A stretch of DNA of 4,793 nt. Origin: a virus. Its lineage: Duplodnaviria > Heunggongvirae > Uroviricota > Caudoviricetes. The stretch covers positions 1-4,793 of the IMG/VR virus record IMGVR_UViG_2534682002_000009; one strand, given 5' to 3'. This document shows positions 2,411 through 4,793 of this stretch, piece by piece. Numbering within the stretch: position 1 is the first letter of the stretch; each line of letters starts with the position of its first letter. Under the pieces are notes generated by a model. The model made no database searches. It was not told the origin of the DNA and saw only the letters and a list, made by a program, of their open reading frames with translations. The position numbers and the translations under genes were made by a program.

Positions 2411-2912
2411 AATTCCATCCGGCTTTTTGTTGGTACTGGTGACGATAGGCACGCTTGAAAGCGATTGCTTTTTCTATAAGCTCGTCTGTCTCACGTTCCA
2501 CAACAGCTGGATCTGCAAAAAGCAGCCCGGACTCCACCACATCGCCATATTCTTTGTTTAACCCGGCAATCATGTACGTAATGCTTTTTCCGTCAGTAAT
2601 TTCGCGGTACAACCTGAAATCACTAATCCGGATAGCCTCCATAATTGCCGGAATCAGCGCCGTGAATTTTTCACGCTTATCCCTGGTGTCGATAGCCTTC
2701 CAGCGTTCGAATATCTTCACCCGGTTAACGCCAAGCGCACGCTGATCAACCCCGCCATCATCAAGCGTGACACGCTGAACATCGATGTTCGGGCGTTCCT
2801 GTAGAGCCCAGAAGGCTTCAGTAATTAATATCGTCGCCTGCTCCTGCGTCATTCCTGGTCTGCATACCCAGGCATCCAGAGCCTCGCAAACCTGTTCAGG
2901 TGTGATTTTCAT
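2391..2912 (-). CDS. Hypothetical prophage early protein in the YdaT/CII position
   Basis: 173-aa ORF. Its ATG at 2912 overlaps the 3' end of the Cro-like gene by 17 nt and its 3' end overlaps the initiator start. It occupies the slot between cro and the replication genes. No motif recognisable by eye; function is inferred from position only. Confidence 0.65.
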   Translation of the reverse strand: MKITPEQVCEALDAWVCRPGMTQEQATILITEAFWALQERPNIDVQRVTLDDGGVDQRALGVNRVKIFERWKAIDTRDKREKFTALIPAIMEAIRISDFRLYREITDGKSITYMIAGLNKEYGDVVESGLLFADPAVVERETDELIEKAIAFKRAYRHQYQQKAGWNYEPSFC

Positions 2913-3174
2913 TGTTCACCGCCAGTAATTCATTCGCTGTACTCTTACGTCCACAAGGCAGGCCATCGGTTGGGTTAGGGTAAATATCTGGTCGGAGCTC
3001 GTGGGGGGTGACAGTCCACGCCATAATCTCACATAGTTGTAAAACCCTTGATGCAGGGACCTGTTGCCCATTAACCCATCGACATACAACCTGCTGTGGC
3101 AACCCAATCAAGCGAGCAACACCCGCTTGGGATAACCCTATTTGGCGAATTTTATTTTTTAAACATTTATGCAT
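2896..3174 (-). CDS. Cro/YdaS-like HTH DNA-binding protein (lytic-side regulator)
   Basis: Track ORF 2896..3210 trimmed to the internal ATG at 3174, which has a GGAG SD 8 nt upstream (minus strand ggagttagcgatATG). Predicted HTH is SQAGVARLIGLPQQVVCRWVNG. It is divergent from the repressor gene and first in the leftward operon. Confidence 0.8.
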   Translation of the reverse strand: MHKCLKNKIRQIGLSQAGVARLIGLPQQVVCRWVNGQQVPASRVLQLCEIMAWTVTPHELRPDIYPNPTDGLPCGRKSTANELLAVNNENHT

Positions 3175-3281
3175 ATCGCTAACTCCAATCAATCGACACC
3201 ACTTATACACTTTAAAAGTTACACTATCAACACTTTCAAGCTGATTGTGCTGGCTACACTTTTTTTGTGTAAAATGAATGC
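3175..3281. promoter_or_regulatory. Divergent immunity region (OR-like): candidate operators and back-to-back promoters
   Basis: Palindromic ACTTTAAAAGT at 3209-3219, and ACACT(TT) repeated at 3207, 3221, 3230 and 3256. Minus-strand candidate promoter TTGATA (plus 3225-3230), 17-bp spacer, TATAAG (plus 3202-3207), about 25-30 nt upstream of the Cro-like ATG. Plus-strand TAAAAT at 3270-3275 lies immediately before the repressor ATG at 3282. Confidence 0.55.
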
Positions 3282-3689
3282 ATGAAGCGAATGACCACTC
3301 TTGAAATAACCACGTACCGGATAAAACTGGTGCTGGAAAAAACAGGGCTTAAGCAAGCAGAACTAGCCCGCAGAATAGGTGTTGCCCAACAATCGGTCCA
3401 AAAGTGGGTTCATGGCATCACAAGCCCATCAATGGCTAATCTTGATAAACTTTCTGAAGTAACAGGATTCCCTCCATATTGGTTTATGTTGCCACCAAGT
3501 GAGGACGAACAGATTGTGGTACCTGACACAATGAAAATAGGTCCGAAGCAAAGAGAGCTACTTCAGACATTTGGTGCATTCCCAGAGGAAGAACAGGGAC
3601 AAATGCTTCAGGAGATGAAAGACAAAAAAGAGTTAATGGAGCGCACAATTGAAAGATGGCTCGCTGCCCGGAAAGGGCATCGAGCATAA
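3282..3689 (+). CDS. paaR: XRE/CI-like HTH transcriptional repressor (PaaR-like); candidate prophage repressor and TA regulator
   Basis: 135-aa ORF with N-terminal HTH (LKQAELARRIGVAQQSVQKWVHG) and no LexA-like peptidase domain. Divergent from the Cro-like gene and first gene of the regulator-antitoxin-toxin cassette. The symbol is from remembered similarity to the O157:H7 PaaR-PaaA-ParE systems and is unverified. An alternative ATG at 3291 is possible. Confidence 0.8.
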   Translation: MKRMTTLEITTYRIKLVLEKTGLKQAELARRIGVAQQSVQKWVHGITSPSMANLDKLSEVTGFPPYWFMLPPSEDEQIVVPDTMKIGPKQRELLQTFGAFPEEEQGQMLQEMKDKKELMERTIERWLAARKGHRA

Positions 3690-3718: not shown

Positions 3719-3907
3719 ATGAATACGGCCCTTTCACCAATGGTTTCTGAGTTCGAAACCATTGAACAAGAAAACAGTTACAACGAATGGCTGCGTGCGA
3801 AAGTAGCAGCGAGCCTTGCAAATCCGCGCCCAGCAATTCCCCATGACGAGGTTGAGCGCAGAATGGCAGAACGCTTTGCTAAAATGCGCAAGGAACGGAG
3901 TAAGTAG
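3719..3907 (+). CDS. paaA: Small antitoxin (PaaA-like), partner of the ParE toxin
   Basis: Track ORF 3656..3907 trimmed to the ATG at 3719, which has a GGAGG SD with about 8-nt spacing; this gives 62 aa (MNTALSPMVSEFETIEQENSYNEWLRAKVAASLANPRPAIPHDEVERRMAERFAKMRKERSK). The stop is 3 nt before the ParE ATG. Size, charged helical character and position are typical of ParE antitoxins. I recall PaaA2 as 63 aa with a very similar sequence, unverified. Confidence 0.75.
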   Translation: MNTALSPMVSEFETIEQENSYNEWLRAKVAASLANPRPAIPHDEVERRMAERFAKMRKERSK

Positions 3908-3910
3908 TAA

Positions 3911-4198
3911 ATGTTACCCGTGTTATGGCTTGAAAGCGCAGATACCGACCTAGATGATATAACTAGTTATATTGCTCGTTTCGACATAGATGCGGCAGAA
4001 CGCTTATGGCAGCGATTAAGGGGGTGTGTGCTGCCGTTATCCGAACACCCGTATTTATACCCACCAAGCGACAGAGTACCTGGCTTGCGTGAGATTGTAG
4101 CTCACCCTAACTATATAATTCTTTACCGTGTAGCCACTTTAAGCATTGAGATCGTGAGTGTAGTACACGCCAGACGCCAATTCCCCAAGCAGAACTAA
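3911..4198 (+). CDS. parE: ParE/RelE-superfamily type II toxin (plasmid-stabilisation ParE-like)
   Basis: 95-aa ORF. The N-terminal LPVLWLESADTDLDDITSYIA and C-terminal YRV...IEIVSVVHARRQFP regions look like ParE-family toxins. It directly follows the small antitoxin ORF, has GGAG about 10 nt upstream, and is followed by a terminator. Confidence 0.88.
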   Translation: MLPVLWLESADTDLDDITSYIARFDIDAAERLWQRLRGCVLPLSEHPYLYPPSDRVPGLREIVAHPNYIILYRVATLSIEIVSVVHARRQFPKQN

Positions 4199-4211
4199 CC
4201 CTTTCACAGGG

Positions 4212-4235
4212 CCGTCTCATCTCGAGGCGGTTTTT
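4212..4235 (+). terminator. Rho-independent terminator ending the repressor-antitoxin-toxin operon
   Basis: Stem 4212-4218 (ccgtctc) pairs with 4224-4230 (gaggcgg), 7 bp with one G-U pair, 5-nt loop, then TTTTT at 4231-4235, 14 nt after the ParE stop. Confidence 0.6.
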
Positions 4236-4250
4236 GTTGCTCACAACCTA

Positions 4251-4284
4251 ACTTTATAAGTGTTGACATAATAACTTTAAAAGT
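4251..4284 (+). promoter_or_regulatory. OL-like region: two copies of the ACTTTAWAAGT operator motif flanking a candidate rightward promoter
   Basis: ACTTTATAAGT at 4251-4261 and ACTTTAAAAGT at 4274-4284, centres 23 bp apart; the second is identical to the site at 3209-3219. Between them are TTGACA (4263-4268) and an overlapping TGaCATAAT (4264-4272) resembling an extended -10. Which element acts as the promoter is not resolved. Confidence 0.45.
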
Positions 4285-4469
4285 GCATCCTTGTTTCACC
4301 AACCCACCCCATTCAACAGAACGCAGGGCAATACTTCGAGTTACCCGGCAGTGGTCAGGGGTTAAGTAGCCAGCCCGAGGCGTATGAACATGACGGCGGG
4401 AACACTTTGTATAACAGCGCAGCAGGTTTTTAGTTCCGCGACCCGGCGTTAAGGGTAAATGAGGTCAAC

Positions 4470-4622
4470 ATGGATATGCTCAATCTTGGCAACAATGAAT
4501 CTCTGGTGTGCGGAGTATTCCCCAACCACGACGGCACGTTTACCGCGATGACGTATACCAGAAGTAAAACGTTTAAAACCGAAGCTGGCGCGCATCGCTG
4601 GTTAGCAAGAAACGCTAACTGA
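4470..4622 (+). CDS. Small hypothetical prophage protein (50 aa), first gene of the rightward early operon
   Basis: Absent from the ORF track. ATG at 4470 with GAGG SD 5 nt upstream; my translation is MDMLNLGNNESLVCGVFPNHDGTFTAMTYTRSKTFKTEAGAHRWLARNAN, stop TGA at 4620-4622. It is in the position of the small ydaF/ydaG-type genes next to racR in Rac-like prophages; that family resemblance is from memory only. Confidence 0.5.
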   Translation: MDMLNLGNNESLVCGVFPNHDGTFTAMTYTRSKTFKTEAGAHRWLARNAN

Positions 4623-4660
4623 TTAGCGCCAGTAAAAACAGGTTTCCACAGGTTAATTTA

Positions 4661-4676
4661 CCCTGAAAAGTCAGGG
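4661..4676 (+). other. Short hairpin, CCCTGA-AAAG-TCAGGG (boxB-like shape)
   Basis: 6-bp perfect stem with a 4-nt A-rich loop, 39 nt after the small ORF stop. No T-run follows on either strand, so it is not a canonical terminator. Confidence 0.35.
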
Positions 4677-4686
4677 CATAACACGA

Positions 4687-4750
4687 AAGCGCACGGCGAA
4701 GTTAGTCTCTCTGTATAGGTCGTCGTTAAATTTAATTCGACCGTGCGCTT
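4687..4750. repeat. Long imperfect inverted repeat (10-bp perfect arms AAGCGCACGG / CCGTGCGCTT, 44-bp spacer)
   Basis: Read directly: aagcgcacgg at 4687-4696 and ccgtgcgctt at 4741-4750. The arms extend with one bulge (cgaa / ttcga) to about 14 bp. No flanking T-run. Confidence 0.5.
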
Positions 4751-4793
4751 CTGGTTGTGGCAATCCGCGAAATGGCGCGGCGGTAAGTATGGC

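What the first reader, a model, noticed from the sequence alone, without database searches (positions are those of the whole stretch)
4245..4290. Second copy of the operator motif downstream of the toxin gene, suggesting an OL/pL-like promoter under the same repressor
ACTTTATAAGT (4251-4261) and ACTTTAAAAGT (4274-4284), the latter identical to the site at 3209-3219, flank TTGACA and TGaCATAAT promoter-like elements just after the terminator of the TA operon. Their 23-bp centre-to-centre spacing would put two dimers on the same DNA face. Together with the divergent region this mirrors lambda OR / cI-rexAB / OL / pL, with the TA pair in the rexAB position.
Basis: partly seen in the sequence, partly recalled or inferred. 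Interest (0 to 1): 0.6.

Follow-up and report, generated by a model that had tools for sequence, protein, structure and literature searches.

The report
Prophage early-left operator and promoter (OL/PL)
The two repeated motifs after the toxin gene are very probably the left-hand operator and promoter of an E. coli lambda-like prophage, a new immunity flavour of a switch already shown experimentally in prophages CP-933P and Qin, so it is real but ordinary.

Summary
ACTTTWWAAGT occurs exactly three times in the window (3209, 4251, 4274); 0 of 200 shuffles gave as many. The two downstream copies flank TTGACA just after a terminator hairpin.

The window is the immunity region of a CP-933P/Qin-like E. 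coli prophage. It has ydaS(cro)/ydaT(cII)/O/DnaC on the minus strand. On the plus strand it has a short DicA/PaaR2-family repressor, paaA2-parE2, a terminator, this site, a conserved leader and ydfA.

In relatives with the same repressor, the OL2/-35/OL1 block is 93-98% identical while the adjacent terminator segment is 62-68%. In four other immunity types on the same scaffold, the segment is replaced by repeats matching that type's own OR.

Equivalent promoters were shown to be repressed by the cognate repressor: PL933P in CP-933P (Jurenas 2021) and dicBp in Qin.

- The operators are better read as 15-bp sites (4249-4263, 4272-4286).
- I found only two OL sites.
- The promoter conserved across types is TTGACA-17-CATCCT, with a weak -10. 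The TGaCATAAT reading is specific to this type and is neither supported nor excluded.

Verdict: supported; a new heteroimmune member of a known kind; low-to-moderate interest.

The parts
2896..3174 (-). ydaS / cro-like HTH regulator gene (92 aa from ATG 3174)
   Evidence: Pfam YdaS_toxin 1e-10 and HTH_3. Annotated 'transcriptional regulator' in L001. Only 25% identical to CP-933P YdaS, so it is swapped together with the operators.
3201..3229 (-). Rightward promoter PR, inferred: -35 TTGATA (3229-3224), 17-bp spacer containing OR1, -10 TATAAG (3206-3201)
   Evidence: Read from the minus strand. It is the partner arm of the 31-nt inverted repeat with the PL region (I1). The -10 varies as TATAAG/TATAAA/TATAAC in relatives. 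The register is uncertain by 1 nt.
3207..3221 (.). OR1, ACACTTTAAAAGTTA (contains the 3209-3219 motif)
   Evidence: Top PWM score in the window (a training site). Conserved in all same-type loci, with one mismatch in L001.
3230..3244 (.). OR2 (weak), ACACTTTCAAGCTGA, 23 bp from OR1
   Evidence: Second-best non-training PWM hit in the whole window (9.8). On its own it does not exceed the shuffle maximum. The left half-site is conserved in relatives.
3256..3270 (.). OR3 (weak by the PWM), ACACTTTTTTTGTGT, overlapping the PRM spacer
   Evidence: Best non-training PWM hit (10.2). Conserved apart from G/A at one position. Identical to the OL2 site of the Oki immunity type, L016.
3270..3275 (+). PRM -10 candidate TAAAAT, 6 nt before ATG 3282, implying a leaderless repressor mRNA
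   Evidence: Same geometry as CP-933P (GATAAT, 6 nt, ATG), where the leaderless start was shown by 5' RACE and N-terminal sequencing (PMC8630535). Invariant in 12 same-type loci. Inferred, not shown.
3282..3689 (+). Repressor, 135 aa (RefSeq aa from ATG 3291): DicA/PaaR2-family short cI analogue
   Evidence: Pfam HTH_3 1.3e-13, with no C-terminal domain family found. The best solved relatives are the 434 and P22 c2 repressor HTH domains. The C-terminal 55 aa are 53% identical to PaaR2 and the N-terminus is unrelated. It is 34% identical to Qin DicA over 109 aligned residues (query 25-131).
3719..3907 (+). paaA2-like antitoxin
   Evidence: Pfam PaaA2 1.4e-19. 95% DNA identity to the CP-933P gene.
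3911..4198 (+). parE2-like toxin
   Evidence: Pfam ParE_toxin 8e-16. Near-identical to the ParE2 chains 5CW7/5CZE, E = 1e-57.
4212..4239 (+). Intrinsic terminator of the repressor-TA operon (7-bp stem at 4212-4218/4224-4230, then TTTTTGTT)
   Evidence: -15.3 kcal/mol, z = -3.2. A hairpin plus T-run with unrelated sequence sits at this position in all the loci folded from all five immunity types; it is weak in L004, -6.9 kcal/mol.
4249..4263 (.). OL2, TAACTTTATAAGTGT, abutting and overlapping the -35
   Evidence: Invariant in 11 of 12 same-type loci, with one A-to-G change in L011.
4263..4268 (+). PL -35 hexamer TTGACA
   Evidence: Invariant in same-type loci. TTGAC(A/T) lies at the equivalent place in all five immunity types, and TTGACC in Qin dicBp.
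4272..4286 (.). OL1, TAACTTTAAAAGTGC, filling the -35/-10 spacer
   Evidence: Only the central W varies among same-type loci. It has the same orientation relative to its promoter as OR1 has to PR.
4286..4291 (+). PL -10 candidate CATCCT (weak, 3 of 6), 17 bp after the -35
   Evidence: It ends 6 nt before the conserved leader, exactly like the TAAACT of the experimentally active PL933P. The variants CATTCT and CATCAT keep A at position 2 and T at position 6. Not called by the consensus scan.
4264..4272 (+).
   Evidence: Present as TGaCATCAT in L007 and TGaCACTAT in L008. Absent from the other four immunity types. Its conserved bases are also explained by the -35 hexamer and by OL1, so it is not excluded.
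4298..4469 (+). 5' leader of the early-left transcript, conserved across heteroimmune prophages
   Evidence: 80-94% identical between immunity types whose operators are unrelated. About 87% identical in several phage records. No Rfam match and no stable fold, z = +1.6. The 5' end is C-rich.
4470..4622 (+). ydfA-like gene (DUF1391), first gene of the early-left operon
   Evidence: Pfam DUF1391 1.3e-28. It occupies the same position as ydfA downstream of dicBp in Qin.

Best explanation
Positions 4249-4291 are the left operator-promoter (OL/PL equivalent) of a lambdoid E. coli prophage of the CP-933P/Qin type that carries a previously uncharacterised immunity specificity.

Inferred mechanism: the 135-aa DicA/PaaR2-family repressor (3282-3689) binds as dimers to two 15-bp pseudo-palindromes. 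OL2 (4249-4263) abuts the -35 hexamer TTGACA. OL1 (4272-4286) fills the spacer up to the weak -10 CATCCT. Binding excludes RNA polymerase and silences the early-left operon (ydfA ... dicB/kil, exonuclease, xis, int). The same protein binds OR1-OR3 (3207-3270) between itself and the cro-like ydaS. The cro-like YdaS is expected to use the same sites.

The repressor-paaA2-parE2 transcript, probably leaderless from ATG 3282, ends at the hairpin at 4212-4230 just upstream. The toxin-antitoxin pair therefore sits where rexAB sits in lambda.

Shown here: sequence anatomy, conservation, and co-variation of OL with OR and with the repressor's HTH domain across five immunity types.

Shown elsewhere for homologues: repression of PL933P and of dicBp by their cognate repressors.

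Inferred only: binding, promoter activity and transcription start in this particular element, cooperative binding at the 23-bp spacing, and any OL-OR looping.
For: 1. Statistics: there are three exact copies of the 11-mer, all in the two regulatory gaps, with 0 of 200 shuffles matching. A 31-nt inverted repeat links the PR core to this site.

2. Context: Pfam and PDB identities of all genes. The near-identical locus L001 continues into dicB, exonuclease, xis and int next to potC.

3. Purifying selection: in 11 loci with the same repressor type, the block CTAACTTTATAAGTGTTGACAnnnTAACTTTWAAAGTGCAT is nearly invariant. It is 93-98% identical where the neighbouring terminator segment is 62-68% and parE is 65-86%. 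The 23-bp spacing is kept in the nine loci where both exact 11-mers were scored.

4. Co-variation: in CP-933P-type, H16-type, IHE3034-type and Oki-type loci, the same position carries other repeats around TTGAC(A/T). That position lies just upstream of the conserved leader ACCAACCCACCCC. Those repeats match that locus's own OR. The OR-against-PL shared-8-mer matrix is block-diagonal. OL/PL (42-51%), OR (44-53%) and the HTH-coding part (42-59%) diverge together, while the leader (80-94%) and, against CP-933P, paaA/parE (95%/90%) stay conserved.

5. Specificity to the repressor: the motif is absent from the heteroimmune loci L002, L003 and L009 (the only three checked), and it occurs nowhere else in the 14-kb L001.

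6. Homologous experiments: PL933P with OL1-3 downstream of parE2 is repressed about 100-fold by PaaR2 and YdaS, and PaaR2 octamerises (PMC8630535). DicA is 34% identical to the window repressor and represses dicBp upstream of ydfA 22-fold (PMC10448788).

7. A terminator-like hairpin precedes the site in the ten loci folded, covering all five types.
Against: No binding or transcription data exist for this element.

The -10 hexamer in the conserved register is poor (CATCCT, 3 of 6), and the consensus scan did not call a promoter. PL may therefore be weak, or may start from another register.

Only two OL sites are detectable, against three reported for lambda, CP-933P and Qin.

OR2 and OR3 score no better individually than the best hit in shuffled sequence.

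Same-type loci are related by descent, so conservation alone could partly reflect recent ancestry. The contrast with the flanking segments argues against this.
Confidence: 0.85

Rival explanations
1. The operators are the same, but the functional promoter is the first reader's extended -10 (TGaCATAAT, 4264-4272). Transcription would then start near 4279 inside OL1. TTGACA would not act as a -35, and OL1 would work as a roadblock at +1 rather than in the spacer.
For: TGnCATAAT is a good extended -10 (5 of 6 plus TG), whereas CATCCT is poor. The variants in L007 (CATCAT) and L008 (CACTAT) still keep A at position 2 and T at position 6.
Against: The bases that stay constant are already fixed by the -35 hexamer and by the first base of OL1, so they carry no independent information.

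The four other immunity types and Qin have no such element at this offset (CACAAA, CTAACG, CTTAAG). All of them do share TTGAC(A/T/C), a 16-18 bp spacer, and a -10 ending 6 nt before the leader. The element's own PR has the same -35/operator/-10 layout.
Confidence: 0.15
2. The sites are functional repressor-binding sites, but the promoter is dead in this immunity type. They would serve mainly as a distal operator that strengthens repression at OR by looping, about 1.07 kb away, or they persist in a decaying cryptic prophage.
For: The -10 is weak in every same-type locus (CATCCT, CATTCT, CATCAT). PaaR2 octamerises like CI, and the C-terminal domain is shared. Many such prophages are cryptic.
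Against: The consensus -35 and the 17-bp spacing are invariant. A and T at the two most important -10 positions are kept. The downstream leader and early-left genes are intact and conserved. The homologous PL933P and dicBp are active promoters.
Confidence: 0.08
3. The repeats are a chance or relic duplication with no regulatory role, or they are a binding site for the PaaA2-ParE2 complex as in classical type II toxin-antitoxin autoregulation.
For: Classical type II antitoxins bind palindromes near their own operon. The motif is A/T-rich.
Against: 0 of 200 shuffles reproduce the copies. The block is the best-conserved segment of the locus, and it co-varies with the repressor HTH, not with the TA genes. 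Against CP-933P the TA genes are 90-95% identical while the site is unrelated. PaaA2 has no DNA-binding domain, and regulation is by the third component (PMC8630535). The site lies downstream of the TA operon, not at its promoter.
Confidence: 0.02

Closest known systems
PL933P with OL1-OL3 of cryptic prophage CP-933P (E. coli O157:H7): the PaaR2 / YdaS / YdaT switch with paaR2-paaA2-parE2 (Jurenas et al., mBio 2021, PMC8630535)
   Same: Same gene order and the same scaffold. The paaA and parE genes are 95% and 90% identical in DNA, and the leader downstream of PL is 88% identical. There is a terminator, then the operators around TTGAC(A/T), and the -10 ends 6 nt before the leader. The repressor's C-terminal 55 aa are 53% identical. 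The leaderless-start geometry is the same.
   Different: The immunity differs. The repressor's N-terminal DNA-binding domain is unrelated, YdaS is only 25% identical, and YdaT is longer (173 aa). The operator sequence differs (TAACTTTWWAAGTG here; GTTTAGTAA-type repeats there). Two OL sites were found here against three there. The -10 is CATCCT here against TAAACT there. No CP-933P-type YdaT site is present. Nothing has been tested experimentally for this type.
dicBp and the DicA/DicC immunity locus of cryptic prophage Qin (E. coli K-12)
   Same: DicA is also 135 aa, is 34% identical over 109 aligned residues (query 25-131), and lacks a cleavage domain. Its promoter lies just downstream of the repressor gene, carries OR-like operators (TTAGnnAnnnCTAA) in and upstream of the spacer, and drives ydfA ... 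dicF-dicB. DicA represses it 22-fold, and the switch is bistable and RecA-independent.
   Different: Qin has no toxin-antitoxin pair between the repressor and the promoter. Most of the conserved leader is missing. The operator sequence and spacing differ.
Phage lambda OL/PL with cI-rexA-rexB
   Same: The logic matches. Divergent PRM/PR share operators, accessory genes are co-transcribed with the repressor and are followed by a terminator, and then a second operator set overlaps the leftward early promoter. Operator spacing is about 23-24 bp (lambda values from established knowledge).
   Different: There is no sequence homology of repressor or operators. The repressor is short and has no RecA-cleavable C-terminal domain. 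There are two rather than three OL sites. No N gene or recognisable nut site follows PL. OR and OL are about 1.07 kb apart rather than about 2.4 kb.
Phage 434 repressor and operators (ACAA-N6-TTGT)
   Same: The best solved-structure relatives of the HTH domain are the 434 repressor and P22 c2. Half-sites in this family (ACACT/TAACT here, ACAAT/ACAGT in IHE3034, ACACA in the Oki type) around an A/T-rich centre resemble the 434 layout. The 434 consensus is quoted from memory.
   Different: The E-values are weak (about 1e-3), the site length is different, and the C-terminal domain is different. This is a resemblance, not membership.

Membership tests
Lambdoid left operator-promoter (OL/PL; PL933P / dicBp class) | Lies 3' of the repressor operon, in the same orientation, after its terminator, and faces the early-left genes | tested here: met
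   Gene order. Hairpin plus T-run at 4212-4239. The early-left genes ydfA, dicB, exo, xis and int are present in L001.
Lambdoid left operator-promoter (OL/PL; PL933P / dicBp class) | Carries two or more copies of the operator sequence found between the repressor and cro genes, overlapping the promoter hexamers | tested here: met
   OL1 and OL2 match OR1. OL2 abuts the -35 and OL1 fills the spacer.
Lambdoid left operator-promoter (OL/PL; PL933P / dicBp class) | Three operators (OL1-OL3) | tested here: not met
   The PWM scan finds no third site near 4200-4320. This is typical of the class rather than strictly defining.
Lambdoid left operator-promoter (OL/PL; PL933P / dicBp class) | A recognisable sigma-70 promoter | tested here: inconclusive
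   The -35 is consensus and the spacer is 17 bp, but the -10 matches only 3 of 6 and was not called by the scan. The positional equivalence to the active PL933P is exact.
Lambdoid left operator-promoter (OL/PL; PL933P / dicBp class) | Operator sequence changes together with the repressor's DNA-binding domain in heteroimmune relatives | tested here: met
   Five immunity types were compared. The OR/PL word-sharing matrix is block-diagonal, and the segment identities follow the same pattern.
Lambdoid left operator-promoter (OL/PL; PL933P / dicBp class) | Repressor (and Cro) binding, and repression of transcription | not testable with these tools
   Shown only for the homologues.
paaR-paaA-parE three-component toxin-antitoxin locus | A ParE2-type toxin and a PaaA2-type antitoxin (without a DNA-binding domain) downstream of, and co-oriented with, a separate regulator gene | tested here: met
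   Pfam PaaA2 and ParE_toxin. Near-identity to the ParE2 structures. The gaps are 29 nt and 3 nt with no terminator between the genes.
paaR-paaA-parE three-component toxin-antitoxin locus | The regulator is homologous to PaaR2 | tested here: inconclusive
   Only the C-terminal 55 aa are homologous (53%). The N-terminal HTH domain is unrelated.
DicA/PaaR2-type short prophage repressors | N-terminal Cro/C1-type HTH, a short conserved C-terminal domain, and no S24 peptidase/cleavage domain | tested here: met
   HTH_3 only. 34% identity to DicA over 109 aligned residues (query 25-131). C-terminal homology to PaaR2.
DicA/PaaR2-type short prophage repressors | Higher-order oligomerisation (octamer) and antirepressor-type, RecA-independent induction | not testable with these tools
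   Reported for PaaR2 and for DicA/Rem only.

The most novel reading that the evidence does not exclude
The locus family is a natural panel of at least five (six with Qin) matched repressor/operator specificities on one constant scaffold: a shared C-terminal domain, the TA cassette and the leader. The specificity determinants are split into two islands, cro-OR-HTH and terminator-OL-PL. These islands always match, although a conserved, freely exchanging TA cassette lies between them.

The window type may also show partial cross-talk. Its OR3 (ACACTTTTTTTGTGT) is identical to the OL2 site of another type (L016), so a co-resident heteroimmune prophage repressor could act on this prophage's PRM.

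If true, this would give a compact system for reading an HTH recognition code, and an example of inter-prophage regulatory coupling.
Probability: 0.25. Interest if true: 0.45.

Novelty: new member of a known kind. Interest (0 to 1): 0.25.

Why it matters
It assigns a concrete operator (a 15-bp TAACTTTWWAAGTG-type site) and a promoter layout to an uncharacterised immunity type. That type occurs in roughly 37 of 5,426 complete E. coli genomes, several of them named STEC or isolated from cattle or bovine faeces.

It shows that the CP-933P/Qin switch architecture generalises across several heteroimmune variants. It also predicts what controls the cell-division inhibitors (dicB/kil) and the excision genes in these prophages.

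It adds no new mechanism. The architecture, including a toxin-antitoxin pair in the rexAB position and a repressor-controlled PL just downstream, is already published.

Tried and rejected
- **Rfam search:** the whole window at E <= 1 gave no match, so no known RNA element lies in the leader or the operator region.
- **HK022 put-like antiterminator RNA just downstream of PL:** rejected. The 177-nt leader folds worse than its shuffles (z = +1.6), whereas put RNAs are two stable stem-loops (PMC9378689).
- **Third OL site:** not found by PWM scan.
- **CP-933P-type YdaT site (TTGATT-N6-AATCAA):** none within 2 mismatches.
- **Consensus promoter and terminator scan:** called neither PL nor the terminator. 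I relied instead on folding and on positional homology.
- **Phage database search:** no phage record carries this immunity type. Only the TA region plus leader (phage Evi, CP-933P-type immunity) or the leader alone were found.
- **Supplementary tables of the mBio paper:** these gave primers but no operator sequences. I used a primer to retrieve the CP-933P locus.
- **PaaR1 (CP-933M) as a possible match:** no O157:H7 genome appeared among the 60 listed of the 132 DNA hits to the repressor gene. This was not pursued at the protein level.
- **Motif at relaxed stringency (2 mismatches):** not significant.

Full report
**What is in the window**

The 4,793-bp window is the immunity and replication region of a lambdoid E. 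coli prophage.

On the minus strand lie:
- a DUF1627 gene;
- a DnaC/IstB-like ATPase (698-1438);
- an O-like replication gene (1445-2410);
- a YdaT-family gene (2391-2912);
- a YdaS/Cro-like HTH gene (2896-3174).

On the plus strand lie:
- an HTH_3 repressor (3282-3689);
- a PaaA2-family antitoxin (3719-3907);
- a ParE toxin (3911-4198);
- a DUF1391/ydfA-like gene (4470-4622).

The toxin is almost identical to the crystallised ParE2 of E. coli O157:H7. The closest complete genomes are about 99% identical. In them the plus-strand genes continue into dicB, an exonuclease, xis and int next to potC. The segment after the toxin gene therefore faces the early-left genes of the prophage.

**Checking the observation**

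ACTTTWWAAGT occurs exactly at 3209, 4251 and 4274 and nowhere else. Dinucleotide shuffles gave a mean of 0.01 matches, and none of 200 reached the observed count. With two mismatches allowed the pattern is no longer significant.

The repeat finder shows more than the 11-mer. A 31-nt inverted repeat (3205-3235 against 4258-4288, 81%) makes the downstream site a reversed copy of the core of the rightward promoter. On the minus strand that promoter reads TTGATA, then 17 bp containing the motif, then TATAAG.

The hairpin at 4212-4230 followed by TTTTTGTT is significantly stable (-15.3 kcal/mol, z = -3.2). The consensus scan called neither this terminator nor a promoter at 4263. The promoter was missed because the hexamer 17 bp after TTGACA, CATCCT, matches TATAAT at only three positions.

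**Published homologues**

The arrangement is already known.

- *CP-933P.* Jurenas et al. (mBio 2021, PMC8630535) showed that in cryptic prophage CP-933P the paaR2-paaA2-parE2 operon sits in the immunity region. [quoted passage not shown] A promoter PL933P with three operators lies beyond parE2. It is repressed about 100-fold by PaaR2 and by YdaS. PaaR2 octamerises like CI.
- *Qin.* In K-12 prophage Qin, DicA represses dicBp upstream of ydfA 22-fold. The switch is bistable and RecA-independent, and an antirepressor (Rem) relieves repression (PMC10448788).

I retrieved both loci.

The window's repressor is not PaaR2. Only its C-terminal 55 residues are homologous (53% identity), and the N-terminal DNA-binding domain is unrelated. 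Its YdaS is 25% identical to the CP-933P protein. It is 34% identical to DicA over 109 aligned residues (query 25-131). Its operators also differ from the GTTTAGTAA-type repeats of CP-933P. The window is therefore a heteroimmune relative of two experimentally characterised systems.

**Conservation within the same immunity type**

About 37 of 5,426 complete E. coli genomes carry this repressor at 85% DNA identity or more. The exact PL module was found in 20 of them by megablast.

I aligned 12 loci of this type. The block CTAACTTTATAAGTGTTGACAnnnTAACTTTWAAAGTGCAT is almost invariant, while the sequence between the parE stop codon and the block is heavily diverged. Measured against the window:

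| Segment | L004 | L008 |
|---|---|---|
| OL2/-35/OL1 block | 98% | 93% |
| Terminator segment | 62% | 68% |
| parE | 86% | 65% |

The 23-bp spacing of the two sites is kept in the nine loci where both exact 11-mers were scored. The motif occurs nowhere else in the 14-kb L001 locus.

**Co-variation between immunity types**

Four other types share the scaffold:
- CP-933P type (L002; phage Evi, L003);
- an O157:H16 type (L009, L017);
- an IHE3034 type (L015);
- an 'Oki' type (L016).

In each, the segment just upstream of the conserved leader (ACCAACCCACCCC...ACAGAAYGCAGGG) contains TTGAC(A/T) flanked by repeats. Those repeats are unrelated to the window's motif but match that locus's own OR. Examples are ACAATTAAAAACTGT in IHE3034 and ACACWWWWWWWGTGT in L016.

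A matrix of 8-mers shared between each OR and each PL segment is block-diagonal. There is one exception, noted under things seen in passing.

Segment identities show two specificity islands:
- cro, OR and the HTH-coding part are 30-59% identical between types.
- Terminator, OL and PL are 36-51% identical between types.
- The leader (80-94%) and, against CP-933P, paaA/parE (95%/90%) remain conserved.

A hairpin plus T-run of unrelated sequence precedes the operators in the ten loci folded, covering all five types, although it is weak in L004.

**Anatomy and likely mechanism**

The sites read best as 15-bp pseudo-palindromes:

| Site | Coordinates | Sequence |
|---|---|---|
| OL2 | 4249-4263 | TAACTTTATAAGTGT |
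| OL1 | 4272-4286 | TAACTTTAAAAGTGC |
| OR1 | 3207-3221 | ACACTTTAAAAGTTA |

OR2 (3230-3244) and OR3 (3256-3270) are weaker sites, 23 and 26 bp further on. They are the two best non-training hits of a PWM scan of the whole window. Individually, though, they are no better than the best hit in shuffled sequence. No third OL site was found.

OL2 abuts the -35 and OL1 fills the spacer, as OR2 and OR1 do at PR. Bound repressor dimers would therefore exclude RNA polymerase. The 23-bp spacing is close to lambda's 24 bp and compatible with cooperative binding. The shared C-terminal domain makes PaaR2-like oligomerisation and OL-OR looping over 1.07 kb plausible. All of this is inferred, not shown.

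The -10 that fits all types is the hexamer ending 6 nt before the leader:

| Immunity type | -10 hexamer |
|---|---|
| CP-933P (active PL933P) | TAAACT |
| IHE3034 | TAGATT |
| Oki (L016) | TATGAT |
| Window type | CATCCT / CATTCT / CATCAT |

However, it has no counterpart in the other types, and its constant bases are already fixed by the -35 hexamer and OL1. I keep it as a rival at about 0.15. Transcription start mapping would decide between a start near 4298 and one near 4279.

On the other side, TAAAAT (3270-3275) lies 6 nt before ATG 3282. This is the same geometry as the proven leaderless paaR2 start. It favours the 135-aa reading over RefSeq's 132-aa annotation.

**Rivals considered**

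- *Dead promoter, with the sites serving only as distal operators.* Possible given the weak -10, but disfavoured by the invariant consensus -35, the fixed spacing and the intact conserved downstream operon.
- *Chance.* Excluded by the statistics and by conservation.
- *Classical autoregulation by the TA complex.* Excluded because the site co-varies with the repressor HTH and not with the TA genes. PaaA2 also has no DNA-binding domain.

**Things seen in passing**

- The leader (4298-4469) is conserved across heteroimmune prophages and several phage records. It has no Rfam match, does not fold stably, and has a C-rich 5' end. I rejected a put-like RNA; its function is open.
- L009 and L017 carry two PaaR-family regulators in tandem.
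- The window's OR3 is identical to the Oki-type OL2. This is the one off-diagonal signal in the matrix.

**Verdict**

The element is a new heteroimmune member of a known, experimentally characterised kind. It is useful for annotation and as part of a natural specificity panel, but it is not a new mechanism. Interest is 0.25.

Noticed in passing
window 4298-4469: The roughly 170-nt leader between the PL site and ydfA is 80-94% identical among prophages whose operators are unrelated, and about 87% identical in several phage records. It has no Rfam match, folds worse than its shuffles (z = +1.6), and starts with a C-rich, G-poor stretch. Its function (rut site? nut-like site?) is unknown. No N-like gene follows PL.
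   Followed up: partly
L009 1336-2199 and L017 1732-2536: These loci carry two PaaR-family regulators in tandem. A PaaR2-like gene (74% identical to PaaR2) sits at the cI position with its own OR and PL repeats. A second gene, 62% identical to the window's repressor in L009, lies directly upstream of the TA pair with only about 30 nt between them. L017 has an equivalent second regulator that was not scored. No window-type motif exists in L009; L017 was not scanned.
   Followed up: partly
window 3256-3270 and L016 (PL region after parE, about 2960-2975): The window's OR3 (ACACTTTTTTTGTGT) is identical to the upstream PL operator of a different immunity type (L016). That type's repressor is a homologue with a diverged HTH. 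This produces the only off-diagonal signal in the OR/PL matrix and hints at possible cross-talk between co-resident prophages.
   Followed up: no
window 3282-3293: RefSeq annotates the repressor in related genomes as 132 aa, starting at the ATG equivalent to 3291. The -10-like TAAAAT lies 6 nt before ATG 3282, which mirrors the proven leaderless paaR2 start and suggests a leaderless 135-aa product.
   Followed up: partly
window about 4623-4660: Relative to the closest genomes (for example L001), the window lacks about 0.7 kb after ydfA, including a 122-aa hypothetical gene. Window 4661-4793 resumes at L001 8244-8376, upstream of dicB.
   Followed up: partly
L011 1471-1750 and its PL site: In strain A19 (from a vampire bat) the parE gene is frameshifted, and OL2 carries the only substitution seen inside a half-site (ATAAGTG to ATAGGTG). 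The conserved leader also has a 10-nt deletion.
   Followed up: no
window 3104-3115 and 3185-3196: There is a direct repeat CCAATCAAGCGA / CCAATCAATCGA, 81 bp apart. One copy is in the ydaS 5' UTR and one is inside ydaS (D6). No CP-933P-type YdaT site (TTGATT-N6-AATCAA) is present. Whether the repeat relates to a PRE-like, YdaT-dependent promoter is unknown.
   Followed up: no
window 3244-3273, minus strand: The consensus scan called a second leftward-facing promoter-like site, TTTACA-18-CACAAT, overlapping OR3 and OR2 upstream of PR. The -10 is not well conserved in relatives (TACAAA in L004), so it is probably a chance match.
   Followed up: partly
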